From a virus (taxonomy: Duplodnaviria; Caudoviricetes), in the IMG/VR virus record IMGVR_UViG_3300025530_000011, positions 1 to 59,117 of that record: a stretch of 59,117 nt of DNA; one strand, given 5' to 3'. Below the pieces are notes generated by a model. That model worked only from the letters and a program-made list of their open reading frames with translations. It was not told the origin of the DNA and made no database searches. The position numbers were made by a program, and so were the translations under genes. Shown here piece after piece: positions 4,369 through 59,117 of this stretch (positions within the stretch are counted from its first letter, which is position 1; every line of letters begins with the position of its first letter).

Positions 4369-4842
4369 ATGGGGAGACAAGTTATATGTCCTTATTGTAA
4401 AGAAAAGTTAGATAAAGATGAAGCGCATCCATATAAAAAACGTTATTATCACGAAAAATGTTTTAATGAATGGCAAGCGCATAGTCAGCACAGGAAAGAT
4501 TTGATAGCCTATATCTGCGAATTACATAATCTTGATGCTCCTACTGGAATGATATTAAAACAGATCAAAGAGTTTGAGAATGACTACGGTTATAAGTTGA
4601 AAGGTATGGAGTTAGCTTTGAGATATTTTTATGAAACACTGGGAAATCCCGTTAGAGAAGGTGACGGAATTGGGATTATTCCTTATGTTTACGAAGAAGC
4701 AAAAAAGCATTATATAACAAAAATGAAAGTTGAAGAAAGTGTGGCAAAGCATGAAAAGCTAGAAAAAGATTATTTAGTCACTATAGATTTAAGTAAAAAA
4801 TCTCATTTTAAAAAGAAATTAATTGATATTTCATCTATTTAG
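4369..4842 (+). CDS. Zn-finger replication protein (YorH-like)
   Basis: CPYC...YHEKC; lies immediately before the helicase. Confidence 0.65.
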   Translation: MGRQVICPYCKEKLDKDEAHPYKKRYYHEKCFNEWQAHSQHRKDLIAYICELHNLDAPTGMILKQIKEFENDYGYKLKGMELALRYFYETLGNPVREGDGIGIIPYVYEEAKKHYITKMKVEESVAKHEKLEKDYLVTIDLSKKSHFKKKLIDISSI

Positions 4843-9292: not shown

Positions 9293-10702
9293 GTGGGTTA
9301 TTTCTCGGTTCACAATCATAGCATGTTTAGCAATATTAGGCTTGTTGATTCATTAAACAGACCAGAAGAGCTGATTTCTTATGCAAATGAAATTGGTTTG
9401 AAAGGTATTTGCCTTTCAGACCATGAGTGTTTGTCCGGTCATGTTAAATTCATTCAAGCATATAAAGAAGCCAAAAAAGAAGGAAAATTAAGAGATGATT
9501 TTAAAATCGGATTAGGCAATGAAATATATTTGGTAAAAGAAGACTCACTTGAAGAATTAAAAGAAAATTACACAAATAAAAATGAAGATACAAAATTTTA
9601 TCATTTTCTTTTATTAGCTCGTAATAAAAAAGGTTATGAGCAATTAAAAATCTTGAGCAGTATGGCGTGGGAAAACATGTTTTCCACTGGATTGATGGAG
9701 CGTGTACCAACATTTAAGAAAAACTTAAAAGATGTCATTAAAAAAGGTGATGTAATTGCTTCGACGGCCTGTCTCGGAGGTTTCGTTGCACAAACGATTC
9801 TTAAGTGTCTTGAAGCCAAAGAACAAAAAGATGAAAATAAATTAAATTATTACAAAAAAGAATTAGATAACTTTGTAAATTTTTGTATTGAAGTTTTTGG
9901 TAAAGATTGTTTCTTTTTTGAAATACAACCATCTGATAATAAACAACAAAAAATTGTTAATAAGAAACTGGTTGAACTTTCTAAAGTCTATGATATTGAC
10001 TATATTGTTGCAACGGATGGACATTACCTGAAAAAAGAAGATAGGTACGCTCATAAGGTATATCTTCAAAGTCAGGATGGAGAACGGGAAGTAGATGATT
10101 TTTATGATGCTACATACATCATGAGTGAAGATGAAGTAAGAAATTATTTACGAGATCATTTGTCTGAGCAAGAAATTGATAAGGCATTTGAAAATACATT
10201 GAAAATTTATGATATGATTGAATTTTTTGATTTAAAGCAACATACAGTTATCCCACATGCTAAAATTGAAAATTTTCAAGTAAACCATATATTTAAGCCT
10301 GCATATGACAAATTTGAATACATTGAAAAATACGCCAATAGTAAATATCAGATAGACCAATACCTTTTGTATTTAATTGAAGAAGGATTCAAAAACAAGA
10401 TGAAGAATCCCGATTTGACTAAAGAATATTTCTATAAAGTAATGGATCGAATAAATACTGAACTAAGAGAGCTTTGGTTAATATCAGAAAAATTAGGAGA
10501 CAGGATGTCTTCTTATTATGTTTTAACTAAACAAATTGTTGATATTATTTGGGATAAAGGTGATTCGCTTGTGGGAGTCTCAAGAGGTAGTGCAGCAGGA
10601 TTTCTTATCAATTATTTAATTGACATTATTCAAGTAAATCCATTGGATTATAACTTGCCACATTTTAGACATTTGACTGCGGAACGTCCAGAATTACCCG
10701 AT
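9293..10702 (+). CDS. dnaE: DNA polymerase III alpha subunit, exon 1 (PHP domain to RPELPD)
   Basis: HNHSMFS, LSDHE, STACLGG, ATDGHY, SRGSAAG; ends at the catalytic motif PD. Confidence 0.9.
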
Positions 10703-11082
10703 TATAGATTAGTCGCCTATATTGGTAACAATATAGTGAAAAGTTGGTGAACCTGTATTTGCAGGGTGTGTCTGTTGTATTAACAGATGCTAACAGTGGA
10801 AACCTAAGTTATTAATTAAAAAATTAATAATATGGTAACACTGTGCCAAGCGTTTAAGTCATGTTGTGAAACACACTTAAACGAAGGTTAAACGACTATC
10901 CCGTTGGCGGTGAAATTCCGCAATAGGAGTAGGGCTTGCTGAAATGCAAGTGGGTGAGAATCCCTTAAATCGAAGTGCCAACTGTCCTCATATAAATAAA
11001 TTATATGAGTGATAATGATATAGTCTACTCCGACTCTTGAAATAAAGAGTGTTAAAGTATTCCGAAAGGAACGGTATAAAGG
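10703..11082 (+). ncRNA. group I intron (380 nt, no ORF) in dnaE
   Basis: Exon ends in T and intron ends in G. P1 CGATTA/TAGTCG has a U-G pair at the splice site; P7 strands GACTA and ATGATATAGTC. Removal restores ELPD-IDLDSQ in frame. Confidence 0.9.
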
Positions 11083-12153
11083 ATTGATCTGGACTCGCAG
11101 CAAAACAGAAGAAGTCAAATACTCCAAGCGTTAAAGGACACTTTTGGTGAAAGACAAGTTTTAAATATTGCAACATTCGGAACAGAAGGAAGTAAGAGTG
11201 CACTACTTTCTGCTTGTCGCGGAATGGGGATCGATGTGGATGAAGCGTCTTATCTTACCACTTTAATTCCAGTGGAAAGAGGAAAAAACTGGTCATTATC
11301 CGACTGTTTCTTTGGAAATCCAAAGAAAGATAGGAAGCCAGTAAAAGAATTAGTCAATGCAGTTGAAAAGTATGAAGGATTAAAAGAAATAGCACTTAAA
11401 ATTGAAAATCTTGTTAATAAAAGATCGGTTCATGCTTCAGGTGTTTACATATACAACGATGATTACACAAAATTTAATGCAATGATGAGAGCGCCTAGTG
11501 GTCAACCAACAACACAATTCGACATGGGAGATAGCGATTATATGGGCAATCTGAAAATTGATCTTCTCACGGTTATCTCTATAGACAGGATAAGAGCTTG
11601 TATGGATATGCTAATTGAAGATGGTTATATGGAGTGGAAAGGTAGTTTAAGGGAGACATATAATGAGTATTTACATCCAAGTAAATTGAAATATGATGAT
11701 CCAGAAATGTGGAAGAAAGTAGGAAATAATGCTATTCCTGACCTATTCCAATTCGATACTCCGGTTGGACTACAATGCGCTCAAAAAGTAAAACCAACTA
11801 ACGTGTTAGAATTAGCGATTGCCAATTCCCTTATGAGATTAATGTCAGATGGAGATATGCAACCAGTTGATAAATACATATTGCATAAAAATAATCCTGA
11901 AATATGGATTAATGAAATGAAAGAATATGGTTTAACTGACGAAGAAATTGAGATTGTTAGAGAACACTTAGACGAAGTTTATGGTGTCTCAGAGTCCCAA
12001 GAAGGTATTATGTTACTTTCAATGGATAAGAGGATATCAGGTTTTACAATATCAGAGTCGAACAAGCTCAGGAAGGGCATAGCTAAAAAGCGCGAGGATA
12101 TTATACAAGAAATCAAAAATCTTTTCTTTGAAAAGGGGCTACAAAATGGCTAG
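11083..12153 (+). CDS. dnaE: DNA polymerase III alpha subunit, exon 2 (palm/fingers; ends at TAG)
   Basis: IDLD, SVHASGV, KIDLL, LFQF, SQEGIM, KLRKGIAKK motifs. Confidence 0.88.
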   Translation: MDLDSQQNRRSQILQALKDTFGERQVLNIATFGTEGSKSALLSACRGMGIDVDEASYLTTLIPVERGKNWSLSDCFFGNPKKDRKPVKELVNAVEKYEGLKEIALKIENLVNKRSVHASGVYIYNDDYTKFNAMMRAPSGQPTTQFDMGDSDYMGNLKIDLLTVISIDRIRACMDMLIEDGYMEWKGSLRETYNEYLHPSKLKYDDPEMWKKVGNNAIPDLFQFDTPVGLQCAQKVKPTNVLELAIANSLMRLMSDGDMQPVDKYILHKNNPEIWINEMKEYGLTDEEIEIVREHLDEVYGVSESQEGIMLLSMDKRISGFTISESNKLRKGIAKKREDIIQEIKNLFFEKGLQNG

Positions 12154-13579
12154 TGAAAATTTACTTAAATACATTTGGGATACCCAAATTTTACCACAGG
12201 CAGGTTATTCGTTTTCAAGGCTTCATAGTGTTGGATATTCATTAATAGCCTTGCAGGAAATGAATTTAGCACATTACTATCCTCAAGTTTATTGGAATAC
12301 AGCTTGTTTATCGGTAAATGCTGGTGCAGATGAAAACAATGATGATAATAAAGGCACGAAATATGGAAAAGTGGCAACTGCAATTGAAAATATGAAAAGA
12401 AGAGGAATCCAAGTTGATTTACCCGACATAAACAAGGCTGGTTTTGGCTTTAAGCCAAATGTGGAAACCAATTCAATTATTTTTGGTTTAAAAGGGCTTA
12501 ATGGTATTGGTGATGATTTAGTTCATTTGATTATTGAAAATAGACCGTATCATTCATTTGAAGATTTTGTTAATCGTATGTATGATACAAAAATTGTGAA
12601 AAAGAAACAGATGATTCAATTAATTAAAGGGGGCTGTTTTGAAGCATTTGGTGACAGGAAAGAAATAATGCGAAAATTTATTAATCATATTTTTGAGCCA
12701 AAAGAAAAACTGACAATGACCAATTTTAAACAAATAATCGAATTAGGATTAGTGCCTGAAAAATTCAAGTTAAATGTAAGGTTCTTTAGATTTAAAGATT
12801 ATATATCAAAGTTTGTATACAAAACGGTACAAAAGCCCAAAGATAAGCTTTTTATTCTTGATGATATATCGGCTCAATTTCTTAATGAGCATTTTTCTGA
12901 AGAGTGTATTAAAGATGTTGTAGACGGAAGATTAATCATTTCTGAAAAACAGTTCAAAAAAGAATATGATAAGAAGATGGAATGTGTAAAAGAATGGTTA
13001 TCACAAGAAGAAACTTTAAAATTATTCAATAATCAATTGTTAGAATTAGAATGGGAAGCAAATGCTTCAGGAAAAATAAGTGAATGGGAAATGTCTTCAT
13101 TAAGCTTTTATCATTCTGAACATGAATTAGTACATTTAAATAAAGATAAATACGGTGTTTCAAATTTCTTTGAGTTACCGGAAGAGCCGATTGTAGTTAA
13201 GACATATATATCTAAAGGAATCGAAAGATCAATTTTTGAGTTAACTAGAATTGCTGGAACAGTATTAGATAAAGATAAAAATAAGCATACGATTACTTTA
13301 TTGACATTAGAGGGGGTAGTCACAGTTAAGTTTTATGCGGGTAACTTCTCTTGGTATAATAAACAAATTTCAGAAAAAGGATCTGATGGTAAAAAGACCA
13401 TATTAGAGTCTTCTTGGTTTACAAGAGGCAATAAGTTATTAATTACTGGTTTTAGACGGGGAAATCAATTTATTCCTCGTACTTATAAGGACTCAATTTA
13501 TAAACACACAGTTGCTTTAATAAAGGAAATTGATCATGAAGGAAATCTATCTTTGCAAACGGAGAGAACAATGGCTTAG
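12146..13579 (+). CDS. dnaE: DnaE C-terminal part in a different frame (split gene or frameshift)
   Basis: YSFSRLHSVGYS, PDINKA, FGLKGLNGIG (HhH), OB fold; AAGGGG RBS 7 nt before ATG 12146. Confidence 0.82.
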   Translation: MASENLLKYIWDTQILPQAGYSFSRLHSVGYSLIALQEMNLAHYYPQVYWNTACLSVNAGADENNDDNKGTKYGKVATAIENMKRRGIQVDLPDINKAGFGFKPNVETNSIIFGLKGLNGIGDDLVHLIIENRPYHSFEDFVNRMYDTKIVKKKQMIQLIKGGCFEAFGDRKEIMRKFINHIFEPKEKLTMTNFKQIIELGLVPEKFKLNVRFFRFKDYISKFVYKTVQKPKDKLFILDDISAQFLNEHFSEECIKDVVDGRLIISEKQFKKEYDKKMECVKEWLSQEETLKLFNNQLLELEWEANASGKISEWEMSSLSFYHSEHELVHLNKDKYGVSNFFELPEEPIVVKTYISKGIERSIFELTRIAGTVLDKDKNKHTITLLTLEGVVTVKFYAGNFSWYNKQISEKGSDGKKTILESSWFTRGNKLLITGFRRGNQFIPRTYKDSIYKHTVALIKEIDHEGNLSLQTERTMA

Positions 13580-29300: not shown

Positions 29301-32122
29301 AGCAAAAGATATGTATACATATCCTCCAATAGCCAATCAAGACGATTTTTCTGAATTTATGGTGGTTACACTTTATGATTTAATTCCACACTTAGATGAA
29401 GATGGGTTAAAAAAATTAATAGATAGACTGGAAGTTGTATTAAAGTATAGATAAAAGTCGAATTTTATACAGGAGATGATTAAAAATGGATCAGGAAAAC
29501 AATTCAATTATAATGAAGACTGTTTTCAATGGTAAACTTAAAGTCCAAAATGTCCCTCATGTTTCTTATCCAAACGGGTATGGTTTTGATGGCGAAAAAG
29601 AGTATATACCAACTGATGTTTTATATAAGCTTTCGCAGATTTTTCAATATATGTTGGATAATAAAATATCTGAAATGGACTTTGAAAAGTGGTGACACAT
29701 ATATGGACGAAAATAAACAAAAAATAATTAAACTGATAGAGGGAATTTTATCGAAAGAAAAATACAAAAACTATTCCTTTAATGAAATTATTTGCATGTT
29801 ACAAAGTGGATTTACGGAGTGGAGCTATGTACATGATCCTGCGTTTATTTCAGATGAATATTTTATAAAATTCCTTGAAAAGTATAAAGATAGCTTATAA
29901 AGAGGTGGTGGCATATTGTTTGGATTTGGTTTTTATAGCAATGTTGTAAAAGGATTTTTACAACTAATTGGATTAATGTTTGTTTCATTTATTATTGGAT
30001 TTGTTTTAGGTGCATGGATTTTTTGATAAAAGAATGGTAATTGATACATAAATTAGGAGGGATATTCAAATGCATGGATATTGTGGAGACTGTGATGAAC
30101 AAATAGAGTTTTACGAAGGTAACATTGTTAAGATATATGACAGTTCAAAAAATGAAATATCAGTTTATTTAAAATGTCCTTATTGTGGAGAATCGGAATT
30201 AATGACGAAGGTTAACAAAAAAGGACTGATAGTATGAAATCAACAAAATATCAATTATTAAGAGATGAATATAATCACGCTCTTAAAGAAATAGAATTGA
30301 GAAATCAAATCATCAAAGATTTAAAAGAAAAATTAAACAAAATCCAATTTCTAAAATATTCGTTCTATGGAACAAAAGAAGAATTGTATAAAGAAATTGA
30401 CAGGATTATTAATGAATAAATCAAATAATCATGAGGTAAACAGAAAATGAAGTGTCCTATTTGTGATAAAGAACTTAAAACTGATCGGGATTATATGGAC
30501 AATATTTTGATGGAAGAAAGCGTAAAGTGTGCAGATGATTTTCATTTTTACAGTTATCAATATATGACAGGGAATACAGAAGAGGTTATTGGCAATGTAG
30601 CTTTTTATAGTCATTATGCAGATTCAAAGGAAATTCGTGATTTACAAAGCAAACAATATAGGGCGGTCTTAGAATTAGAAAGAGAATATTATCAAAAGAA
30701 AATTAATATTAAAGGTGAAGATAATGAAAGATTCAAAAAAAATATCTAAAATCTTAAAGCTGATAAAGATTATTTGGGAAGCACGCCCGGACGAACGTTT
30801 TCATCAATTAATCAATAATTTACAACATGAATACATAAAAGATACTGGTGAAACCGGGTGGCTTGTGAAAAATCAAATTGTTAAAGTTTATAATCATGCT
30901 GCCTATTTAGAAGAAGTGACTTATATTGATATGTTTCACTTGGAAGATGAAAAATTTTTGGAATGGTTGAAAATGAAAATTAAAGAATTATAATACAGAG
31001 GGTGACACGATGGATCAATTCTTATATCACTTAGCAGAGATGAAATATAGGATGTGGCATGAATTGTATGTATTTGCTCCAAGAATTGCAGATGAAGAGT
31101 ATTTAGAGATAATTAAAGCTCAATCCAAATATAAATTATTATTAGAAATTATTGATTTGCTTCCTGAAGAACAGGCAAAAACATTTCGTGCAATAGAACA
31201 AGAATTCTTTTCTGATTCTCCATAGTTAAAAAATAATTAAAATAAAAGAGTTATCTTAATTAAAAAATAATGGAGGAAATAATCATGGACAATGAATTAT
31301 ATTTAATACTAACACTAAGACATAGAGATATGTTTTTTGGTGGAGATGTGCATTTATTTTGGTGTAAAAATGGAGCTGGATACACAGCGATACTACAAAA
31401 AGCAGGTCTTTATACAAAAGAAGACGTTGAGATAATGTGTCGTGAAAATGATATACCGATTCCTATCTCTTATACTGGTTATGATAAAGATTTTTTTGAG
31501 GACAATGAAAGAATAATCAAGTTTCCCACTTTAATGGCTAAAACAAAAGAAGTAGATAATTTGATTGCAGATTGGCAAAACGAGTACAGAAGGAAGCGTA
31601 GTCAAAGATAAAACTTTTCTTTTATCTAAGAAAGTTGAGGTGATTGATTTGTTAAATTTTTCAATGTATATATGGTTTTTCTTATATATATTTTTATCAA
31701 TTTTTGTTCTTTATCAAAGATACAAAGGTATTGATATGACTTGGAGAGAATTTGGTTTCTTTATAGCTGGTGTTTTATTTGGCGGAATACCATATTTTTG
31801 GGTTGTTTATCATAGTTTGTAAATAAGGAGTGGAAATATGAGAGAAAAATCAAAAGCAATAGATGTAAGTAATCGAGTTGGTCTTAGTTTTTCTAAAGGA
31901 TTTGCGAAAGCTAATTATAATTATGAAAAATACTTACAAAACCAAATTGAACGAGCCATAGAAGACTGGAATGAACTCAAAGAATGGATCAATAGTATGT
32001 TGGATGAAACTGGTAATGATAAAACAAATAAGGATATATATGAAAAGATTAAACAAAAGATGGAGGATATTGAAAATCGATAAAAATTTTATGAGTGATC
32101 AAAGCTTACAGGAGTTGATAAA

Positions 32123-32704
32123 ATGACTTGCGTTGTAGGATTGACACATAACGGAATCACTTATATTGGAGCAGACTCTTTGGCATCGAATTCATATTAT
32201 AAAACTATTAGGAAAGACAAAAAAGTATTTAAATTAAAAGATACAAACAATGCGATTTTAGGTTTTACATCATCTTATAGAATGGGTCAATTACTGATGT
32301 ATGCAAATGGTTTGATTGATCCTAAAGACGAACCGGACATTGATCATGAATATTTGGTTACAAAATTTATCCCTAATGTGATTAGTTTGTTTGAAAATGG
32401 TGGATTTGGAAAGAATAATGGTGGAGAAAAATCAGGAGGTATTTTTTTATTGGGCTACAAAGATAGATTATTTAAAATACAATCTGATTATCAAGTCTCC
32501 GAGTCTTATAAAAATTATGATGCTTGTGGCTCCGGTGAAGAATTTGCTTTAGGATCGTTACACACTACAGAAGGTTTAGGAATGAATCCAGTGGAAAGAA
32601 TACATATGGCTTTGCAGGCAGCAAGTGAGTTTAGTGTAAGTGTTCAACCACCATTTTATATAATGAATACTTATAATGATAAGGTGGTGAAACTGGAAAA
32701 ATAA
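32123..32704 (+). CDS. HslV/proteasome-beta-like Ntn peptidase
   Basis: N-terminal MTCVVG (Thr nucleophile), GADS, KKVF, ACGSG. Confidence 0.75.
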   Translation: MTCVVGLTHNGITYIGADSLASNSYYKTIRKDKKVFKLKDTNNAILGFTSSYRMGQLLMYANGLIDPKDEPDIDHEYLVTKFIPNVISLFENGGFGKNNGGEKSGGIFLLGYKDRLFKIQSDYQVSESYKNYDACGSGEEFALGSLHTTEGLGMNPVERIHMALQAASEFSVSVQPPFYIMNTYNDKVVKLEK

Positions 32705-32724
32705 AAAAATATAATAAAATATTG

Positions 32725-32753
32725 TTTACAAACAATTAAAAATAAATTATAAT
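32725..32753 (+). promoter_or_regulatory. sigma-A promoter for tracrRNA-CRISPR-cas12f transcript
   Basis: TTTACA-17-TATAAT, overlapping a copy of the phage repeated motif. Confidence 0.75.
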
Positions 32754-32794
32754 AATATTAGATTTTGAAAGAGAGGTGAAACGAAATAAAATTT

Positions 32795-33030
32795 CAAGGG
32801 GAGGCTTAGATCGGTGAATCCGAGTCCTACGTGCGAATCGCATATGGATGCCCCATAACCTGAGATAGTCAGCGATGAAATTGTTGATACATAAGGATTT
32901 ACGTAAGGTGCGAATCTATAAAAAATACGCTGATGAAACTCGGTCAAGGTATTTTCCGAAAGGAAAAGTCCTAACTAATGTTAGGTGAAAAACTCGATCA
33001 CAAAGCCCGATCGAGCCACTTACAACTGAA
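32795..33030 (+). ncRNA. putative Cas12f1 tracrRNA
   Basis: Structured non-coding tract (GGGG/CCCC, CAGCG/CGCTG, TTTTCC-GAAA-GGAAAA, CTCGATC/GATCGAG stems). Anti-repeat CCACTTACA (33016-33024) is complementary to repeat TGTAAGTGG. Confidence 0.78.
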
Positions 33031-33036
33031 TACGGA

Positions 33037-33434
33037 GTTGCAATACGTATGCGTATGTAAGTGGTAAGCTAGTTGGGGTAATTGGACACCTATTGCTAAC
33101 TTGTTGCAATACGTATGCGTATGTAAGTGGTAAGAGCTTTAATTAAACCATTAATCCAAAAATAGGGGGTTGCAATACGTATGCGTATGTAAGTGGTAAG
33201 AATCTGTTAGTAATCAGCAACGTGTTTTAGATGTAGTTGCAATACGTATGCGTATGTAAGTGGTAAATACGCTTTGGCGGTTGATGAATTAAGACGCAAA
33301 GTTGTAATAATGTGTATGTATAAGTGGTAAAAAATTTAAGAAAATTAAGGCATTGACACTGATGTTGTAATACATATATACATGTAAGTGGTAAATGATG
33401 AATATACGAAAGATGATCAAGAAGCGTTGCAATA
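33037..33434 (+). CRISPR. CRISPR array: 32-nt repeat GTTGCAATACGTATGCGTATGTAAGTGGTAAG, 6 repeats + partial seventh, 6 spacers
   Basis: Repeats at 33037, 33103, 33169 (identical), 33236 (1 change), 33301 and 33364 (degenerate), 33426 (9-nt remnant). Spacers of 34, 34, 35, 33, 32 and 30 nt, all different. Confidence 0.95.
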
Positions 33435-33454
33435 ATAAAAGGAGAGTAGTATAA

Positions 33455-34843
33455 ATGACGACATATACAGCTAAAATCCAAATAGTTAAACCATTAGACA
33501 CTGATTGGAATACACTAGGCAAAATATTAAATGAGTTACAATACGAAACATGGAAATTTTCTAATAAAGCCATGCAAATGTTATGGGAATTTGACGGAAT
33601 AGGATATGAATATTTTAATAAATACAAAAAATATTTAAATCTTAAAGAATATCCATTTATTAAGGATGATGGTAAAAAAATAACTACAATTGATAGCCAC
33701 ATCAACAATCAATTAAAAGAATTGGTGAAACATATGAACTCCGCAGGTGTACAGGCAACAATTAAAAATGTTATTGACAAATGGAAGGCAGATAAAAAAG
33801 ATGTTCAGTATGGTAGGAAATCAGTTGCAAACTATAAGCGTGATTTGCCAATTGAGTTACATAATAAGCAAATGTTTACACATGATAAAAAACCAAATAT
33901 AACCATAGACAGCAGAGGTAAATATATAATTGAAATTAAATTAATATCACAAAAATATGCAATGGAATTAGGAAGAAAAGGTACAGAAACAGGATTCAAA
34001 CTATTATTGGCTGTTAAGGGTAATTATTTAAAATCAATTGTAGACAGAGTAATTAGTGGTGAATATAAATTATCTATGAGTAAAATTGTTCGAGATAAAC
34101 GTAAAAAGAAGTGGTTTCTCAATCTAGCCTATACATTCACTCCTAAAAAGAAACAACTCAATCCTAATCGCATCATGGGAATTGATATGGGTGTGAATAT
34201 TCCAGCTATGTTAGCCATTTCAGATAGTCCATATTACCGTCAAGCAGTTGGGAGTAAAGAGGAAGTGGAATCATTTAGACGACAAATTGAAGCAAGAAGA
34301 AGGAGTATTCAACGACAACGAAAATGGTGTGGAGAAGGAAGTATTGGACATGGTGTTAAAACTAGACTTAAACCACTAGAAAAATTATCCGGTAAAATTG
34401 CAAGATTTAAAGACACAAAGAATCATTGCTGGAGTAGGTACATAATTAATGAAGCAATTAAGAATAATTGTGGAACTATTCAAATGGAAGATTTAACTGG
34501 AATTGCAAAAGATAAAGCATTTCTAAAAAATTGGACATACGATGATTTAAGACAAAAAATCACATATAAGGCAGAAGAAGCAGGTATTAAAGTGGTGATT
34601 ATTGATCCATACAAAACATCAAGTAGATGTCATAAATGTGGTCACATACATAGCAGTAAGAATAAAGATGATTGGCGACCAAAGCAAGAAAAGTTTATTT
34701 GTGAGTCATGTGGATTTAAAACTAATGCTGATTGGAATGCAGCAAAAAATATCGCTACAAAAGGAATTGAGAAAATTATTAAGAAACAGATGGAAAAGCA
34801 AGATCAAGAGTATAAGCATGGTTTGAAATATGTTGTTAATTAA
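33455..34843 (+). CDS. cas12f1: Cas12f1 (type V-F) miniature RNA-guided nuclease, 462 aa
   Basis: RuvC GIDMG, IQMEDL, NADWNAAKNI intact; CHKC/CESC zinc finger; N-terminus IVKPLDTDW and overall sequence closely recall AsCas12f1; adjacent array and tracrRNA. Confidence 0.9.
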   Translation: MTTYTAKIQIVKPLDTDWNTLGKILNELQYETWKFSNKAMQMLWEFDGIGYEYFNKYKKYLNLKEYPFIKDDGKKITTIDSHINNQLKELVKHMNSAGVQATIKNVIDKWKADKKDVQYGRKSVANYKRDLPIELHNKQMFTHDKKPNITIDSRGKYIIEIKLISQKYAMELGRKGTETGFKLLLAVKGNYLKSIVDRVISGEYKLSMSKIVRDKRKKKWFLNLAYTFTPKKKQLNPNRIMGIDMGVNIPAMLAISDSPYYRQAVGSKEEVESFRRQIEARRRSIQRQRKWCGEGSIGHGVKTRLKPLEKLSGKIARFKDTKNHCWSRYIINEAIKNNCGTIQMEDLTGIAKDKAFLKNWTYDDLRQKITYKAEEAGIKVVIIDPYKTSSRCHKCGHIHSSKNKDDWRPKQEKFICESCGFKTNADWNAAKNIATKGIEKIIKKQMEKQDQEYKHGLKYVVN

Positions 34844-34883
34844 AAATAAATTAAAATAATATAAAGAAAGGTGAACCAAAAAA

Positions 34884-35558
34884 ATGGCAAAAGTATTATT
34901 TAACCGCAATCCAATTAAATTTGGTAAATCAATTAAACAACCGTCTATTGATGAAATCAAAAACACTCCTGCTTTATGGAACGCAAGTTTAGACGATGCA
35001 CTTAAATACGGTGGAGAACTTACAAGAGCTGTCATCGGTGCAATGGATTTAAAATTTGATAGAAAATACATAATCGTTGACACAAAAATTCATATGCTTA
35101 TGCCCGGTTTCTATCCAGCAATTCCGGGTTGGCACACTGATGGAGTTCCAAGAGGAAAAGAATTAAAGCCTAATGTTAAAGCTACACCGAACATTTTTGC
35201 ACAAGAAGAAATGTCTGACACAAGGTTTCATTTGTTGGTGACTGGTGCTGGTTGCTTAACTAAATTCCTTACAGATCCTATTGAGTTGTCAGTGCCAGAT
35301 GAACCAGATACTAACTTATATAAAAATATCACAGAGCAAATTCACACAATCAAACCATCTGGAATAGTATCTGCTCCAAGTTGTACTGTTGTTGAGTTTG
35401 ATTGGTGGACTTTACATACAGGAGTTAAATCAGAAAAGCACGAATGGAGATTTTTAATTAGAGTGACAGAAACAGATCATATGGAACCACAGACTGATTT
35501 ACGGAAAATTATCAGAACACAGCAGCAAGTTTATGTACCTGAATCTTTTGGATGGTAA
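34884..35558 (+). CDS. putative 2OG-Fe(II) dioxygenase-fold protein
   Basis: PGWHTDG (HxD), distal His in WTLHTG, Arg in WRFLIR. Confidence 0.65.
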   Translation: MAKVLFNRNPIKFGKSIKQPSIDEIKNTPALWNASLDDALKYGGELTRAVIGAMDLKFDRKYIIVDTKIHMLMPGFYPAIPGWHTDGVPRGKELKPNVKATPNIFAQEEMSDTRFHLLVTGAGCLTKFLTDPIELSVPDEPDTNLYKNITEQIHTIKPSGIVSAPSCTVVEFDWWTLHTGVKSEKHEWRFLIRVTETDHMEPQTDLRKIIRTQQQVYVPESFGW

Positions 35559-36356
35559 ATAAAATTAACTTTTTATCAAAGGAGGAATGAATAATGGAGG
35601 AAGTGCAACTTAAAAAAGTATGTTCTTTACATATCAATGGGTATGAAAATAAAGAAAAAGTTATTGAAGCTTTAACAAATAGTCATTATATTGTTGGCGC
35701 TGAGTTGTTAAAAAATAAAATAATGGGATCACCAATAGGTTGGCGAATAGATGTTTATGAAAACGAAATTAATTAATTTAAATCAGAAAGGAGTTTAATC
35801 AATTGAAAATTCAATACGATATTCTTTTTAAAAACGGAATAAAAGAAAAAATTATTGTTCAAAACGCTTCAGAAGAAGAAATAGAAAATTTTAACCATAA
35901 TGTTAAAGAAGGATTTACGAATAACGCATCAGGTGCTTTAACACTTGGTGATGGAAAAATAGAAGTCTTTTTTGTACGGTTAGACGATGTTTCCAGAATA
36001 TCAATGAAAATCATTAAAGAGAATGATTTAAATGAAGTTTTTGATTTTGGGGGAGGTTTTCAATGAAATATGAAGTAAATTATTGCAGAGATTTTGGTGG
36101 AAAAGTTGGTGATCAATGGCTTTGGAGAACAGTTGAAGCTAAAAATGAAGAAGAAGCAATGAAGATTATTTATGAAGAGTATAAAGCTAAGTACATAGTT
36201 AGTATTGCGCCAATAAAAAATAATTAGTAATCCACCTAAATATGATGAATATTCAAGTAATGGTGTTTATATTTGGGGTACTGAAAATTCTATAAAAAAA
36301 TACTTAGAAACTTATAAATGAAATAAATTAAAACAATATTAATAAGGAGCGGTTTA

Positions 36357-55058: not shown

Positions 55059-55101
55059 ATAATAAAATGTATACAAGTTTTACTTGAGGAGATGTCATGT
55101 A

Positions 55102-56628
55102 ATGGATACAAAAGGAAAAATCGAACAAATTAAAGACGTTGCCATTCTCCTAAGAAAAAGTCGTGGAGAAGAAGAAGACTTAGACAAACATAAACAAGAA
55201 TTGGTTGAATTATGTGTCCAAAATGGGTGGAGATATGTTATTTACAAAGAATTAGGAACTTCACAAGATATAAAATATAGACCAGAACTTCAAAAACTTC
55301 TTAGCGATATCCAAGAAGATTTATATGATGCAGTTGTCGTAGTGGACAAAGACCGTTTAAGTCGTGAAGGAACTGGTCAGGTGACTATAAATAAGATATT
55401 AATGGAACATGATGTTTTAATTGTTACTCCATATAAAGTTTATGATTTATCAAACGATAGTGATATGTTAATGTCAGAAGTAGAAGATTTAATGGCTAGG
55501 TTTGAATATAGAATGATTTCTAAACGCTTCAAAAGAGGGAAAAAACGAGGTGCAAAAATGGGGAATTGGGTTAATGGAACCCCACCATTTCCATATGTCT
55601 ATGTTCCTGAGACAAAGAGTTTAGCAGTAGATCCAGAAAAAAAGAAATGGTATCGATTCATGGTAGAACAATTTCTTGAGGGTAAGCCTTTTTACGAAAT
55701 TGCTTGGGAATTAAATAAAATGGGGGTAAAAACTCAAAGAGGAAACCTATGGCATGAAAATTCAATTAGACGACTTCTTTTGTCAGAAGTACATTTAGGT
55801 AAAATAATAAATCAAAAAACAGAAGGTTCTGGTCATAAAAATAAAAAAACAAAGCCTTTAAGAATAAGACCTAGAAGTGAATGGATAATCGTTGAAAATT
55901 GTCATGAAGCAGTAAAAACTCAAGAAGAACACGATATTATTATTGCTACGTTGGCAGCAAGAAGAAAGGTTCCTAAAACTTCCAAACAAATCAAACTTCC
56001 ACTTACGGGTTTAGTTAGATGTGGAAAATGTAAAAAAACTATGCGAGTTTATCGAAGAAAATTAGTAAACGGGTATTCATTTAAAATTAACACATGCCAA
56101 GCGTCTGACCCATTCGGCAATAGATGTAAAAACAGTGGTGGTGATGCGATGGCAATATTATCGACAATAACACAAGAAGCAAAAACAATGGTAGACGAGT
56201 TAGAACAAAAAGCGAAAAATTCTAAATCAATGGATAAAGAAATCCAACATTATAAATTAAAAAAGAATTCTGCATTAAATGAAATTGATAAAAAGAAAGA
56301 AAGTATAGAAAGAGCATATCTAGCTTATGAAGAAGGAGTTATTTCATTAGAAAAGTACAAACAAAGAACAGCCACATTAAAAAAAGAAATTTCAAAATTA
56401 GAGGAAAAAATTAAGTCATACGATATTTTAATCGAGAAATCATCAAATCAAGACAAAGAAGAAAAAATAAATAGGTATATGGAAATGATTGAGCTTATAG
56501 AAAAATTTGATAACATTGAAGATGATGAAACAAATCAAAAACTGAATAAAATCCTAAAAGACAATATTTTCGACATTTATTGGACAAGAGAAGGAGATAA
56601 TGTAACCATTGAGGTAAACTTTATTTAA
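55102..56628 (+). CDS. large serine recombinase (prophage integrase, SprA-like)
   Basis: LRKS catalytic Ser, RPELQKLL, DRLSR, PPFPY, LTGLVRCGKC zinc ribbon, coiled coil. Confidence 0.92.
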   Translation: MDTKGKIEQIKDVAILLRKSRGEEEDLDKHKQELVELCVQNGWRYVIYKELGTSQDIKYRPELQKLLSDIQEDLYDAVVVVDKDRLSREGTGQVTINKILMEHDVLIVTPYKVYDLSNDSDMLMSEVEDLMARFEYRMISKRFKRGKKRGAKMGNWVNGTPPFPYVYVPETKSLAVDPEKKKWYRFMVEQFLEGKPFYEIAWELNKMGVKTQRGNLWHENSIRRLLLSEVHLGKIINQKTEGSGHKNKKTKPLRIRPRSEWIIVENCHEAVKTQEEHDIIIATLAARRKVPKTSKQIKLPLTGLVRCGKCKKTMRVYRRKLVNGYSFKINTCQASDPFGNRCKNSGGDAMAILSTITQEAKTMVDELEQKAKNSKSMDKEIQHYKLKKNSALNEIDKKKESIERAYLAYEEGVISLEKYKQRTATLKKEISKLEEKIKSYDILIEKSSNQDKEEKINRYMEMIELIEKFDNIEDDETNQKLNKILKDNIFDIYWTREGDNVTIEVNFI

Positions 56629-56643
56629 AAGGTGATTTTTTGA

Positions 56644-56698
56644 AAAAAACGAAATGACATTTCCTTTTAACAAAAGAGGAGATGTCATTTCGTTTTTT
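56644..56698. terminator. bidirectional terminator between integrase and mrr
   Basis: AAAAAACGAAATGACATTTCCT ... AGGAGATGTCATTTCGTTTTTT inverted repeat between convergent genes. Confidence 0.8.
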
Positions 56699-57911
56699 AT
56701 TCATTTATCTCAAAATAATCCGTGTCAATTTTTTTAACTATGTATTTCCTGTCCACGGAGACACCAACATTGTGTTCAAGCATATATTTTCCGAGTTGTT
56801 CTCCGTCAATTAAAACAATCTTTTTTTCAATATTTTTAACAAAGTCCCTAGCTTCTTTTGTAAATCGTGAAGTAGTTATGAAAACTCCTTTTCTAGCTTT
56901 TTTGCCTTCAAGACTTCCAGTAAAGGCTTGAACTTCTGGTCTACCTACTGTATTTTTCCATCTTTTTGCTTGTACATAAATAATATCTAATCCTAGTTTA
57001 TCTTCTTTAATTATTGCATCTACACCTTCATCTTTAGTAAAATCTGTAGTTTGACCAGAGCCTAAAGAACCCCCATAGCCCATTGCTAGCAACAAATCCA
57101 AAACAACTTCCTCAAATTTTTTTGGACTTAATTTCTTCACTTTATCTAAAATTTCTAATGCCAACAAGTTATTTATTCTTTTAAACTGGTCATCTATTAT
57201 TTCTATTGGCGTACTTTCATTTTCATTGTTTTCGTCATTATCTTCAAAAATTTCAGTTCCTATATCTTCTTCATTTCCTTCATCGCTGAACTGTTCTTTT
57301 AAAAATCTACTAATTAGCGACATACTAGCACCATAAGGAAAATGATTATAAACTTTTAATCCTAAATCTGTAATGCGATATTTATTCGATTCTAATTGTT
57401 CTACTAATCCTGCTACTTGCAATTCACGTCTAGCGTAACGCGCTCTAATTTTAAATTTAGAGTCACCATTATTTAAAATAATATCTCGTTCTTGCCCCTC
57501 TATTGAAAAATAATCTGCCAATGCTTCATTTATTTCAGAAACATGATGGATCTTACCATCACTCAAAACTTTTAAATATGGTATGGTCATCATCCGAGGT
57601 GTGGGAGATTTACTTAATCTTTGTTTGAAATTTTCTTTGAGTTGATTTCCAAGTTTAACATCAATTTCTTTGTCGGTTAAAGGCGTATTGTTTTTTTGTA
57701 AAAAACTTATAATTTCATTTTTATAAAAATTTCTTTTTCTTAATCTTTTAATGTAATGAATAAACTGAACTGAATCATCTGTATAATAAATAGTCCCATC
57801 AGCATCTCTTTTTGAAGGAATAAATTCATTATAAAGTCTTATCCAATCATGCACTGTTGTTCTTGGATACCCACATTTATCTGCTAATTCCGTAATAGTG
57901 TACCTTTCCAA
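56697..57911 (-). CDS. mrr: Mrr-family (type IV) restriction endonuclease with N-terminal MerR-like HTH
   Basis: FEEVVLDLLLAMGY, DEGVDAI, YVQAKRW, GVFITTS, VLIDG; AAGGAGG RBS on the minus strand. Confidence 0.88.
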   Translation of the reverse strand: MERYTITELADKCGYPRTTVHDWIRLYNEFIPSKRDADGTIYYTDDSVQFIHYIKRLRKRNFYKNEIISFLQKNNTPLTDKEIDVKLGNQLKENFKQRLSKSPTPRMMTIPYLKVLSDGKIHHVSEINEALADYFSIEGQERDIILNNGDSKFKIRARYARRELQVAGLVEQLESNKYRITDLGLKVYNHFPYGASMSLISRFLKEQFSDEGNEEDIGTEIFEDNDENNENESTPIEIIDDQFKRINNLLALEILDKVKKLSPKKFEEVVLDLLLAMGYGGSLGSGQTTDFTKDEGVDAIIKEDKLGLDIIYVQAKRWKNTVGRPEVQAFTGSLEGKKARKGVFITTSRFTKEARDFVKNIEKKIVLIDGEQLGKYMLEHNVGVSVDRKYIVKKIDTDYFEINE

Positions 57912-58145: not shown

Positions 58146-58328
58146 ATGAAGGAATACTTAACACAAGATCGTTTTTCAAAAGAATATAATTGGCTAATAA
58201 AATCAAAATCGCCATATTTGCTACAACATGCAACAAACCCAGTAAATTGGTTGGAATGGTCGCCAGAAGCATTCCAAAAAGCAAAAAGGGAAGGTAAGGC
58301 TGTATTTGTGTCCATTGGCTATTCCTAG
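58146..58328 (+). CDS. phage-borne replacement N-terminus (60 aa) of YyaL-like thioredoxin-domain protein
   Basis: [24 protein letters not shown]...[22 protein letters not shown]; AT-rich codons; AAGGAAGTG RBS. Confidence 0.85.
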
Positions 58329-58344
58329 CCTTCGGGCTATGGAA
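58322..58344 (+). promoter_or_regulatory. C(UUCG)G hairpin containing the UAG; T4 gene 60-like bypass signal
   Basis: TTCCTAGCC-TTCG-GGCTA(T)GGAA: 9 bp with one bulge. Confidence 0.7.
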
Positions 58345-58359
58345 AAATTGAAAAAATAA

Positions 58360-58410
58360 TAAGAATAGGATGTATACAAGATTTACATGTCATTGGTGCC
58401 ATGTAATGGA
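58360..58410. other. probable attR junction (crossover near 58385-58390)
   Basis: Composition switch; host reading frame begins here; 58364-58386 matches 55061-55083 (integrase promoter) at 20/23. Confidence 0.65.
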
Positions 58411-59117
58411 GAGGGAGTCGTTTGAGGATCCTGAAGTGGCGGAGTTGTTAAATCAATATTTTGTGGCAATTAAGGTGGATCGGGAGGAGCGGCCGGATAT
58501 TGATTCGGTTTATATGACCGTGTGCCAGCTGATGACCGGTCAGGGCGGATGGCCGTTGACGGTGTTTTTGACTCCGGACAAAAAGCCGTTTTATGCCGGC
58601 ACCTATTTTCCAAAAAACAGTCAGTATGGCCGGCCGGGACTGATGGACATTTTGCCGCAATTGCATCAAGCGTATCATCAAGATCCGGAGAGAATCGCTG
58701 ATATAGGTAGCCGATTAGTGGAAGCATTGAAAGAAGAGGCGGGCCGAAAGAGCGAGGGAGAGGTCACGGAAGAAGCTGTTCATAAAGGGTTTCAGCAGCT
58801 TGCCGGAAAATTCGACAGCCTCTACGGCGGATTTGGAGAAGCGCCGAAATTCCCGAGCCCCCATCAACTCCTGTTTTTGTTCCGATATTACCATATGACC
58901 GGCAAGGAGTCCGCGCTCAAGATGGCGGAAAAAACGCTTGATACGATGGCTGCGGGCGGTATTTACGACCATATCGGCGGTGGGTTTTCACGCTATTCTA
59001 CGGATGGAATGTGGCTGGTTCCCCACTTTGAAAAGATGCTGTATGACAACGCACTGTTGATGTACGCTTATACGGAAGCTTATCAAATCACGAAGAACGA
59101 ACGGTATCGCCGGATCG
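58385..59117 (+). CDS. yyaL: host YyaL-like thioredoxin-domain (DUF255) protein, 3' portion, runs off window
   Basis: [15 protein letters not shown]...[11 protein letters not shown]...GQGGWPLT...APKFP...[29 protein letters not shown]. Confidence 0.9.

What the first reader, a model, noticed from the sequence alone, without database searches (positions are those of the whole stretch)
32725..34843. Complete prophage-encoded miniature CRISPR-Cas12f1 system
Seen: promoter, tracrRNA, 6-spacer array and a 462-aa nuclease with intact RuvC D-E-D, all on one strand in about 2.1 kb. The promoter overlaps the phage repeated motif and another copy follows the cas gene (about 34845), so the locus seems wired into the phage regulon. 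Known: AsCas12f1-like V-F nucleases are compact dsDNA cutters with T-rich PAMs. Inference: a weapon against competing phages or plasmids, and a possibly untested genome-editing ortholog.
Basis: partly seen in the sequence, partly recalled or inferred. Interest (0 to 1): 0.75.

Follow-up and report, generated by a model that had tools for sequence, protein, structure and literature searches.

The report
Phage-borne miniature CRISPR-Cas12f locus
A fragment of a large temperate phage carries a compact CRISPR-Cas12f DNA-cutting system whose guides match genes of another phage found in the same samples; it is a new, untested member of a known family.

Summary
Window 32725-34843 carries, on the + strand, a near-consensus promoter, a ~240-nt tracrRNA, a CRISPR array and a 462-aa nuclease. 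The array has six 31-32-nt repeats plus a cut-off seventh, giving 6 spacers. The nuclease matches AsCas12f1 structures at E 5e-104 (about 43% identity by my hand count). It keeps D244, E345, R408 and D426, which align with the four residues essential in AsCas12f1.

The tracrRNA is supported by 17 related loci: three helices, 94% of cells paired against 74% in shuffles, with G-U pairs that fit only the + strand. No cas1, cas2 or cas4 lies in the 59 kb, as in type V-U3/V-F1 loci.

The record is a virus fragment (CheckV 37% complete). It has an SPbeta-like serine integrase and a host-like right end, so "prophage" is plausible but not proven.

Two spacers have protospacers: S1 34/34 in a virion-type gene and S3 33/35 in a portal gene. 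Homologues of both target genes sit together on contigs of one other phage family. Both protospacer contexts occur in a sequencing run that also holds this locus. This supports inter-phage competition.

No PAM could be derived, and expression and cleavage are untested. At least 40 of 82 related viral loci, and two cultured phages, carry similar cassettes. Verdict: new member of a known kind.

The parts
32725..32753 (+). sigma-A-type promoter-like site, TTTACA-17 nt-TATAAT; predicted start of the tracrRNA-array-cas12f transcript
   Evidence: 11 of 12 matches, best in the region. It is a consensus match only; no RNA evidence.
32738..32758 (+). exact copy of the phage's repeated intergenic motif AAAAATAAATTAWAATAATAT, overlapping the -10 box
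   Evidence: 24 copies, all on the + strand, 0.72 expected. One search shows that the best copies read TTGACA-N17-TATAAT.
32797..33034 (+). tracrRNA of about 240 nt (5' end inferred from the alignment). Stem 1 pairs about 32798-32801 with 32851-32854. A long-range helix pairs 32860-32864 with 32939-32943. The AAGGTA motif is followed by two small hairpins. The conserved hairpin has stem 32993-32999 / 33009-33015 and loop ACAAAGCCC at 33000-33008.
   Evidence: Over 17 sequences there are 3 conserved helices: 94.4% of cells paired against 73.7% in shuffles (0 of 500), covariation score 0.612 against 0.206. The commonest pair of one column is G-U, which fits only the + strand.
33016..33034 (+). 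anti-repeat, complementary to the 3' part of the repeat (8 bp + internal loop + 5 bp)
   Evidence: I2-I5, 19 nt, 79%; forms a hairpin with repeat 1 in the minimum-energy fold.
33037..33447 (+). CRISPR array. Repeats start at 33037, 33103, 33169, 33236, 33301 and 33364, plus a cut-off copy from 33427. Spacers: S1 33069-33102, S2 33135-33168, S3 33201-33235, S4 33268-33300, S5 33332-33363, S6 33396-33426.
   Evidence: Degeneration towards the gene end places the leader on the tracrRNA side.
33455..34843 (+). cas12f1 gene, 462 aa. RuvC residues are D244, E345, R408 and D426. The zinc ribbon is C392, C395, C416, C419. The ribosome-binding site AAAGGAGAG lies inside the cut-off last repeat.
   Evidence: The residues essential in AsCas12f1 come from passages of 10.1101/2023.07.03.547593.
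34842..34862 (+). second exact copy of the repeated motif, overlapping the last 2 bases (34842-34843) of the cas12f stop codon and preceding the next gene (34884-35558, PHROG 1843, unknown function)

Best explanation
This is a working, self-contained type V-F1 (V-U3-type, AsCas12f1-like) CRISPR-Cas12f cassette. It is carried as cargo by a large, probably temperate, SPbeta-like phage of a low-GC Bacillota host.

Inferred mechanism, by homology with AsCas12f1:
1. One + strand transcript starts at the 32725 promoter and runs through tracrRNA, array and cas12f.
2. The tracrRNA anti-repeat pairs with the 3' part of each repeat. With repeat 1 it can pair in cis, like a natural single guide.
3. A Cas12f dimer loaded with this RNA finds matching double-stranded DNA next to a 5' PAM and cuts it with its RuvC site.

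The guides are aimed at structural genes (the portal and a virion-type gene) of another phage family that shares the habitat. The cassette would therefore serve to exclude or out-compete rival phages.

Shown here: the anatomy, the homology, the RNA covariation and the protospacer matches. Inferred: transcription, RNA processing, dimer formation, cleavage, the PAM, and when in the phage life cycle the cassette acts.
For: Effector:
- E 5.1e-104 to AsCas12f1 chain 8j12_A over residues 7-445.
- Pfam Cas12f1-like_TNB at 79.7 bits against a cut-off of 26.3.
- D244, E345, R408 and D426 align with As D225, E324, R383 and D401, whose alanine mutants lose activity (alignment; passages). D244, E345 and D426 are invariant and R408 is at least 90% conserved in 27 relatives.

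Array and anti-repeat.

tracrRNA:
- The hairpin GAAA-stem-AYRAANNCC-stem followed by an anti-repeat occurs once in the 59 kb. It also occurs on the gene strand in 17 of the 84 other loci scanned.
- RNAalifold finds 3 helices, and 11 of the 18 pairs show compensatory changes.
- 94.4% of cells are paired against 73.7% in shuffles (0 of 500). Sliding the partners gives 25-41%.

Targets:
- S1 matches 34/34 inside a 416-aa ORF that hits viral PHROGs.
- S3 matches 33/35 in a portal gene, PHROG 64 at E 4e-61.
- Homologues of both targets lie 7-8 kb apart on L091, L093 and L097. L097, the one annotated, also carries terminase and head genes.
- Run X3 holds 56% of the locus words and also both protospacer contexts.
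- The newest, leader-side spacer matches perfectly, the third has 2 mismatches, and the oldest two gave no hit. This fits ordered acquisition.

Other support:
- No spacer matches the window itself.
- A 90-97% identical relative in soil run X5 has the same repeat but other sequence at two spacer positions, which points to array turnover.
- 40 of 82 related loci have an array of at least 3 repeats beside the gene.
Against: - No RNA evidence for the tracrRNA or crRNAs. The only RNA-library contig is 167 nt inside cas12f and could be DNA carry-over.
- No consistent PAM. The 5' flanks are TTAT for S1 and GTCC, GTCA, GTAC or GTCG for S3 homologues. GTTG, the AsCas12f1-type NTTR, appears only in one soil variant.
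- A perfectly matching S1 target coexists with the locus in run X3. Interference is therefore not obviously clearing it.
- Repeats 5 and 6 are degenerate.
- Folding energy does not separate the strands (z -3.39 for + and -4.00 for -).
- My crude anti-repeat against repeat matrix separates own from foreign pairs only weakly (mean 10.25 against 7.85).
- There is no Rfam match.
- The record is 37% complete, so the targets could in principle lie in the unsampled part of the same phage.
- 4 of 6 spacers have no match. The phage and plasmid collections were searched with the whole array (all E at least 1). The viral contigs were scanned with all six spacers, and only S3 hit.
Confidence: 0.75

Rival explanations
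1. Self-matching guides. The S1 and S3 protospacers lie in the unsampled roughly 63% of this same phage, in its own structural module. The system would then regulate or tolerate self, or discriminate relatives by PAM or mismatch, rather than attack an unrelated rival.
For: The record is a fragment with no structural genes in the window. The target contigs have similar GC (0.31 and 0.33 against 0.31). They co-occur with the locus in run X3. The S1 flank does not look like an AsCas12f1 PAM.
Against: None of the window's 24 motif copies has a counterpart in L083, L084 or L089-L097 at up to 3 mismatches. No window ORF has a homologue there. The target portal has only distant matches (22-24%) to Streptococcus, Enterococcus and Clostridioides phages. 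It has none to the Bacillus or Geobacillus phages that resemble the window's genes. S3 differs from the co-occurring sequence at 2 positions.
Confidence: 0.08
2. Decaying relic. The cassette is inherited but no longer active in interference.
For: The terminal repeats are degenerate, there are no adaptation genes, no PAM could be recovered, and the S1 target persists in the same run. The Neobacillus paridis relative L001 has only 2 repeats and a shortened ORF (337 aa), so such loci do decay.
Against: The ORF is intact with all catalytic and zinc-binding residues. The first four repeats are identical or nearly so. The tracrRNA keeps all conserved helices. The locus is 100% identical in the contigs of two further runs, X3 and X4. 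A 34/34 protospacer match implies recent acquisition.
Confidence: 0.1
3. The array and guide RNA are read from the - strand. The RNA geometry and the PAM side would then be the reverse of what is proposed.
For: The - strand has two terminator-like hairpins just beyond the anti-repeat (one search lists 32985-32970). The - strand folds at least as well as the + strand. On the - strand, the base runs next to the S1 and S3 protospacers both contain TTCA within 1 nt.
Against: G-U pairs in the conserved helices become A-C mismatches on the - strand (one column has G-U in 8 of 17 sequences, another in 4 of 17). All 17 related loci have the hairpin on the gene strand. Repeat decay marks the gene end as leader-distal. 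The only strong promoter-like site points rightward. The TTCA register differs by one base and is lost in other S3 homologues.
Confidence: 0.04
4. An IS200/IS605-type TnpB transposon with its guide RNA, not a CRISPR system.
For: Database names of relatives are 'transposase' or 'TnpB family'. There is a weak OrfB_IS605 match (28.5 bits). The PHROG label is 'transposase'.
Against: The OrfB_IS605 score is below Pfam's cut-off of 30.5. No Y1 transposase lies in the window. An array and a separate tracrRNA precede the gene, rather than a guide RNA at its 3' end. The best matches by far are CRISPR-associated Cas12f1 structures.
Confidence: 0.02

Closest known systems
AsCas12f1 (Acidibacillus sulfuroxidans, type V-F1 / former V-U3; PDB 7wju, 8j12, 8dzj)
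   Same: The domain layout matches end to end, E about 1e-103. The four essential RuvC residues and the zinc ribbon are the same. A tracrRNA with an anti-repeat precedes the repeat-spacer unit. No adaptation genes are present, and the lineage is Bacilli/Clostridia (passages of PMC7229846).
   Different: Identity is only about 43% by my hand count's alignment. The protein is 462 aa against 422 aa, with extra residues in the N-terminal half and a C-terminal tail. The tracrRNA is longer, about 240 nt against a 171-nt engineered scaffold, with two insertions relative to relatives. The PAM is unknown, and the protospacer flanks mostly do not fit NTTR. The locus is encoded in a virus record.
Virus-encoded type V systems of huge phages (V-F and V-U variants, Cas-phi; Al-Shayeb et al. 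2020, PMC7162821, passages read)
   Same: The system is phage-borne, lacks Cas1, Cas2 and Cas4, has a small array and conserved catalytic residues, and its spacers are aimed at other phages.
   Different: Those phages are over 200 kb. This one is an estimated 160-kb SPbeta-like temperate phage (59 kb at 37% completeness). A review states that CRISPR is rare in phages below 200 kb (PMC11656645). The effector here is the classical As-type Cas12f1, not a new subtype. I could not read the 2022 survey of virus-encoded CRISPR-Cas (Cell 185:4574; not held). It may already list such loci.
Cassettes in the cultured phages Alicyclobacillus phage MMB025 (PV686781) and Bacillus phage Mgbh1 (KU665491)
   Same: Both have the same tracrRNA, array, cas12f order on one strand, with the effector annotated as 'transposase'. 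In MMB025 a CRISPR repeat region is annotated and the conserved hairpin is present. Mgbh1 has 2 repeats and a tracrRNA-like leader.
   Different: Protein identity is 37-39%, with different repeats and neighbouring genes. The MMB025 paper (PMC13141910) never mentions CRISPR (0 occurrences).
Phage-encoded 'Cas12 hacker' (bioRxiv 10.1101/2025.01.20.633832; abstract and passages read)
   Same: It is a miniature phage-borne Cas12 with a tracrRNA, proposed to target rival nucleic acids.
   Different: It belongs to a different subtype: 500-700 aa, a GTN PAM, and activation by host thioredoxin. It did not appear among the PDB sequence matches by name.

Membership tests
Type V-F1 (V-U3) CRISPR-Cas12f | Effector homologous to Cas12f1, with a split RuvC and a TNB zinc-ribbon domain | tested here: met
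   Pfam PF07282 E 1.8e-22. PDB AsCas12f1 E 5.1e-104 over residues 7-445. CxxC...CxxC is invariant.
Type V-F1 (V-U3) CRISPR-Cas12f | Catalytic RuvC residues present (As D225, E324, R383, D401) | tested here: met
   D244, E345, R408 and D426 align to them. Their essential role comes from passages read. Conservation is shown.
Type V-F1 (V-U3) CRISPR-Cas12f | CRISPR array next to the effector gene | tested here: met
   6 repeats plus a cut-off seventh, period 63-67 nt, ending just before the start codon with the cut-off repeat (from 33427) running into the ribosome-binding site.
Type V-F1 (V-U3) CRISPR-Cas12f | tracrRNA with an anti-repeat and a conserved fold | tested here: met
   Anti-repeat at 33016-33034. 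Three covarying helices are shared with 16 related sequences. The hairpin motif occurs in 17 related loci. Expression was not tested.
Type V-F1 (V-U3) CRISPR-Cas12f | No adaptation module (V-U3 hallmark, PMC7229846) | tested here: met
   No Cas1, Cas2 or Cas4 match in the 59-kb record. The record is a 37% fragment, so absence from the whole phage is not shown.
Type V-F1 (V-U3) CRISPR-Cas12f | 5' PAM-dependent cleavage of double-stranded DNA | not testable with these tools
   Protospacer flanks were collected, but no consensus emerges.
Type V-F1 (V-U3) CRISPR-Cas12f | Asymmetric homodimer on one guide RNA | not tested
   Inferred from homology only (passages). No complex prediction was run.
IS200/IS605 TnpB transposon | TnpA (Y1 transposase) and/or transposon ends, with the guide RNA at the 3' end of tnpB | tested here: not met
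   No Y1_Tnp match. OrfB_IS605 is below its cut-off. The guide module lies upstream and is an array.
SPbeta-like temperate phage (genomic context) | Large serine recombinase related to SPbeta-type integrases, a large genome, and one-strand gene order with a repeated intergenic element | tested here: inconclusive
   The integrase at 55084-56628 is 30-36% identical to those of SPbeta-like Bacillus, Staphylococcus and Mammaliicoccus phages. The size estimate of about 160 kb comes from 37% completeness. The motif has 24 copies. No structural genes lie in the window, and likeness to SPbeta's own repeated element is recalled, not tested.

The most novel reading that the evidence does not exclude
AsCas12f1-type (V-U3) systems may be, as a class, portable phage cassettes (tracrRNA, mini-array, cas12f) that move between mid-sized temperate Bacillota phages and serve phage-against-phage warfare. 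That would explain why they never carry adaptation genes. Their arrays nevertheless turn over, as shown by the same repeat with different spacers in a soil relative. Spacers would then be gained by a route that needs no linked cas1-cas2. Two cultured phages (MMB025, Mgbh1) carry unreported versions, which would make the idea testable at the bench.
Probability: 0.35. Interest if true: 0.6.

Novelty: new member of a known kind. Interest (0 to 1): 0.45.

Why it matters
Genome editing: this is one more compact Cas12f1 ortholog, about 43% identical to AsCas12f1. It has its natural guide RNA defined by comparative analysis and possibly a different PAM.

Phage biology: it is a concrete, checkable case of a sub-200-kb temperate phage carrying its own class 2 CRISPR system. 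Two spacers point at one rival phage family that is present in the same samples. It also suggests that the textbook 'bacterial' V-U3 loci may largely be phage cargo.

Neither point overturns current views. Phage-borne type V systems that lack adaptation genes and target other phages have been in print since 2020.

Tried and rejected
- Rfam scan of 32000-35500 at E up to 1: no family.
- Whole-array blastn against the phage and plasmid collections: only chance-level hits, all E at least 1.
- Exact 24-nt scans of viral contigs for S1, S2, S4, S5 and S6: 0 hits each. Only S1 was tried in metagenome contigs.
- Spacers against the window and all fetched loci: no self-match.
- Array regions of 34 related loci and the window against all loci: apart from the window's own S1 and S3 hits, essentially only repeat-to-repeat and shared-flank hits among related arrays, plus one 25-nt L042 match in L043/L044 that I did not follow up.
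- PAM inference: flanks from L083, L084, the X5 variant and 5 portal homologues give no consensus on either side. I first read the GTTG (soil variant) against GTCC (co-occurring variant) difference as PAM escape. I dropped this after one search showed GTCN or GTAC in most family members.
- Folding energies do not tell the strands apart.
- The anti-repeat against repeat matrix is only weakly diagonal.
- My first two regex searches for the hairpin failed on an off-by-one. One search is the corrected one.
- MAFFT on wide flanks (A2) misaligned the window's 5' half. The trimmed alignment A3 was used instead; row L020c was dropped because it was cut.
- Synteny: none of 10 window neighbour genes is conserved next to cas12f in relatives, except one methyltransferase in 3 loci.
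- The RNA-library run X16 covers only 33962-34128, so it gives no conclusion on expression.
- Runs X5-X18 with small shares were not used for habitat claims.
- The genome search 'relatives' is not available for virus records. The 2022 Cell survey is not held. Supplements were not consulted.
Full report
**What is there**

The window is a complete IMG/VR virus record of 59,117 bases. It is linear and CheckV rates it 37% complete. GC is about 30%, nearly all genes lie on the + strand, and there are no tRNAs.

It holds a phage replication and nucleotide-metabolism module:
- DnaB-type helicase and RecJ-like exonuclease;
- a DNA polymerase in two ORFs;
- several DNA methyltransferases;
- ribonucleotide reductase and two topoisomerase II subunits;
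- thymidylate synthase, dNMP kinase and RusA.

The finding's interval lies between an HslV-family peptidase gene (32123-32704) and a conserved phage gene of unknown function (34884-35558, PHROG 1843).

The 462-aa ORF at 33455-34843 matches Pfam Cas12f1-like_TNB at E 1.8e-22. Its OrfB_IS605 score is below that family's cut-off.

Among solved structures, its best matches are the AsCas12f1 entries 8j12, 8j1j, 7wju, 8dzj and 8j3r, at E 5e-104 to 8e-103 over residues 7-445. A 433-aa Cas12f follows (9nzq, 2e-74), then other Cas12f and TnpB chains.

I counted 189 identical positions over the 439 aligned residues in HMMER's printed alignment, about 43%. This is a hand count.

In that alignment D244, E345, R408 and D426 face As D225, E324, R383 and D401. 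Chain 7wju carries Ala at position 225. A preprint on the As structure reports that D225A, E324A, R383A and D401A abolish cleavage (10.1101/2023.07.03.547593, passages). In an alignment of 27 relatives, D244, E345, D426 and the four zinc-ribbon cysteines are invariant and R408 is at least 90% conserved.

**Array**

Identical 32-nt repeats start at 33037, 33103 and 33169. The copy at 33236 has one mismatch. Decayed copies start at 33301 and 33364. A cut-off seventh copy starts at 33427 and merges with the ribosome-binding site of cas12f. The six spacers are 31-35 nt. Decay towards the gene places the leader on the upstream side.

**tracrRNA**

A 19-nt stretch at 33016-33034, two bases before repeat 1, is complementary to the 3' part of the repeat. 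The minimum-energy fold pairs it with repeat 1 as a hairpin.

Immediately upstream lies a 7-bp hairpin with loop ACAAAGCCC, preceded by GAAA. A pattern search for this hairpin (stem of at least 5 bp, loop AYRAANNCC) over the window and 84 fetched loci gave these results:
- one hit in the whole window;
- hits in 17 loci that encode Cas12f relatives, always on the gene strand and always followed by sequence complementary to that locus's own repeat;
- two extra hits with 5-bp stems on the other strand (in L007 and L068), which I take as chance.

An alignment of 17 such regions (A3) shows a shared plan. It starts with a 5' hairpin, followed by an AATCGAGA box that pairs at long range with a CTCGATAAGGTA box. 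Variable hairpins come next, then the GAAA-hairpin, then the anti-repeat.

RNAalifold recovers three helices, and 11 of the 18 pairs have compensatory changes. On the named structure:
- 94.4% of cells pair against 73.7% in column shuffles (0 of 500 reach the observed value);
- the covariation score is 0.612 against 0.206;
- sliding the partners by 1-3 columns drops pairing to 25-41%.

G-U is the commonest pair in one column (8 of 17) and frequent in two others. This fits an RNA read from the + strand and not from the - strand. Folding energy alone does not separate the strands, Rfam has no match, and my crude anti-repeat against repeat matrix is only weakly diagonal.

The window's tracrRNA is about 240 nt, with two insertions relative to its relatives.

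**Promoter and repeated motif**

TTTACA-17-TATAAT at 32725-32753 is the best promoter-like site in the region (11 of 12). The scan as a whole is not enriched.

The 21-nt motif that overlaps this site occurs 24 times with up to 3 mismatches, all on the + strand, against 0.72 expected. The four best copies read TTGACA-N17-TATAAT, and most copies sit just before a ribosome-binding site. One exact copy overlaps the end of the cas12f stop codon (34842).

The cassette is therefore bracketed by two copies of the phage's own promoter-like element. That it is co-regulated with the replication genes is an inference.

No + strand terminator-like site was found in 32000-35600. One transcript through tracrRNA, array and cas12f is the simplest reading.

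**Phage or prophage**

A large serine recombinase (55084-56628; Resolvase, Recombinase and zinc-ribbon domains) is 30-36% identical to the integrases of SPbeta-like phages of Bacillus, Staphylococcus and Mammaliicoccus, which are 124-147 kb. At 37% completeness the full genome would be about 160 kb.

To its right lie a - strand Mrr-type restriction gene and a yyaL-type (DUF255) gene of the kind usually chromosomal. The right end thus looks like host flank. A temperate life style and prophage origin are likely but not shown.

**What the guides aim at**

No spacer matches the window. None matches the phage or plasmid collections above chance.

Exact scans with the first 24 nt of each spacer found 1 of 6 in viral contigs. 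S1, the only one tried there, was found in metagenome contigs.

S3 matches 33 of 35 bases inside a 462-aa portal gene on L083, with no repeats beside it (PHROG 64, E 4e-61). S1 matches 34 of 34 inside a 416-aa ORF on L084 that hits two viral PHROGs of unknown function.

Portal homologues at 62-81% identity occur on nine further small viral contigs. On three of them (L091, L093, L097), homologues of the S1 target and its 116-aa neighbour lie 7-8 kb upstream of the portal on the same strand. L097 also carries a large terminase and a head protein. Both spacers therefore point at one phage family.

That family shares no gene and no motif copy with the window. Its portal has only 22-24% matches in the phage collection, none to the Bacillus or Geobacillus phages that resemble the window's genes.

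Laying contigs of four runs on the locus showed three things:
- Run X3 holds 56% of the locus words and also holds both protospacers, with the flanks seen in L083 and L084.
- Soil run X5 holds a 90-97% identical relative with the same repeat but other sequence at two spacer positions, as well as a variant of the S3 target.
- One RNA-library contig covers only 33962-34128.

**What remains open**

The PAM is unknown. The 5' flanks are TTAT for S1 and GTCC, GTCA, GTAC or GTCG for S3 and its homologues. GTTG, the NTTR type reported for AsCas12f1, appears in the soil variant only. Karvelis et al. report both T-rich and C-rich PAMs among V-U3 nucleases (PMC7229846, passages).

Expression, RNA processing, dimer formation and cleavage are all inferred from homology. 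Because the record is a fragment, I cannot exclude that the targets lie in the unsampled part of the same phage. I put that at under one in ten.

**How common, and how new**

- In the 5.8-billion-protein collection, 545 proteins match at E up to 1e-20. The closest are 66-68% identical and carry only names such as 'transposase' or 'TnpB family'.
- In IMG/VR, 167 stretches encode a relative, of which 80 were fetched.
- With two loci from bacterial genomes, 40 of 82 loci have an array of at least 3 repeats beside the gene by my simple k-mer test. Two-repeat arrays, as in L001 and Mgbh1, are missed by that test.
- Many of these contigs are 100-155 kb.
- The neighbours of cas12f are not conserved between loci, so the cassette behaves as mobile cargo.
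- Two cultured phages carry versions. Alicyclobacillus phage MMB025 has an annotated CRISPR region next to a 'transposase', and Bacillus phage Mgbh1 has 2 repeats. The MMB025 paper does not mention CRISPR.

In print, as far as I could read:
- Type V-U3 is described as lacking adaptation genes and as coming from Bacilli and Clostridia, with no mention of phages.
- Huge phages are reported to carry V-U and V-F variants without Cas1, Cas2 or Cas4 that target other phages (PMC7162821).
- A 2024 review calls CRISPR rare in phages below 200 kb (PMC11656645).
- A different phage-borne miniature Cas12 has been characterised.
- Searches for 'V-U3' with 'prophage', for 'phage-encoded Cas12f' and variants, and for 'Cas12f' with 'Bacillus smithii' found nothing on this theme.
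- The 2022 survey of virus-encoded CRISPR-Cas is not held, and supplements were closed. Either could already list such loci.

**Verdict**

This is a real, intact-looking AsCas12f1-type CRISPR-Cas12f cassette in a large, probably temperate phage, with guides against a co-occurring phage family. It is a new member of a known kind and moderately interesting. Its main value is as a tractable example and a possible editing ortholog. It also hints that V-U3 systems are largely phage cargo.

Noticed in passing
window 58147-59116: A yyaL-type thioredoxin-domain gene (Pfam DUF255) is interrupted just before its CxxC motif. After 60 codons (...IGYS) come an in-frame TAG and a 59-nt insert (58327-58385). 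The reading then resumes (TCHWCHVM...) in another frame. It could be an integration scar, a small mobile insert or a pseudogene.
   Followed up: partly
window 1181-52984 (24 sites, e.g. 1181, 13614, 25296, 46531): The 21-nt motif AAAAATAAATTAWAATAATAT occurs only on the + strand, mostly just upstream of ribosome-binding sites. Its best copies form perfect TTGACA-N17-TATAAT promoters with a fixed spacer, while many others keep the spacer but not the -35 box. It may be a phage-specific promoter or regulator site.
   Followed up: partly
L006 ~4925-4975, L010 ~4925-4975, L019 ~1745-1790, L023 ~4495-4540, L086 ~1460-1490: A hairpin of the form GTGCGAA-about 30 nt-TTCGCAC recurs next to cas12f relatives. 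It lies either between the cut-off last repeat and the start codon or upstream of the tracrRNA. The window has only GTGCGAAT half-motifs, at about 32837 and 32908. Its function is unknown; it could be a 5' UTR regulator.
   Followed up: no
window 9293-13579: The DNA polymerase is encoded in two ORFs (9293-10750 and 12128-13579) that match the N- and C-terminal parts of one PHROG polymerase profile. A 309-aa ORF (11224-12153) and about 1.4 kb lie between them. This may be a split gene with an inserted element.
   Followed up: no
window 56697-57911 (- strand): The only sizeable - strand gene encodes a MerR-type HTH fused to Mrr N-terminal and Mrr catalytic restriction domains. It lies directly after the serine integrase. 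It is either phage defence cargo or the first host gene.
   Followed up: no
L007 4568 and 6374; L019 1904 and 3504; L020 6446, 8040, 8154; L038 6446 and 8046: Several related viral loci carry two or three copies of the tracrRNA hairpin. In L007 they lie on both sides of cas12f, which suggests more than one tracrRNA-array module per effector.
   Followed up: no
L001 3539-5197 (Neobacillus paridis contig): This bacterial-genome relative has the tracrRNA hairpin, only two repeats (one spacer), and a cas12f reading frame of 337 aa, although similarity continues to residue 421. It is probably a decaying copy.
   Followed up: partly
L089-L097 (viral contigs of 5.5-17 kb): The phage family hit by spacers 1 and 3 is known only from short viral contigs. 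In L097 a transcription regulator and a head-protein-like gene lie between the S1-target homologue and the terminase-portal pair, which is an unusual order. The element type (small phage, satellite or prophage piece) is not resolved.
   Followed up: partly
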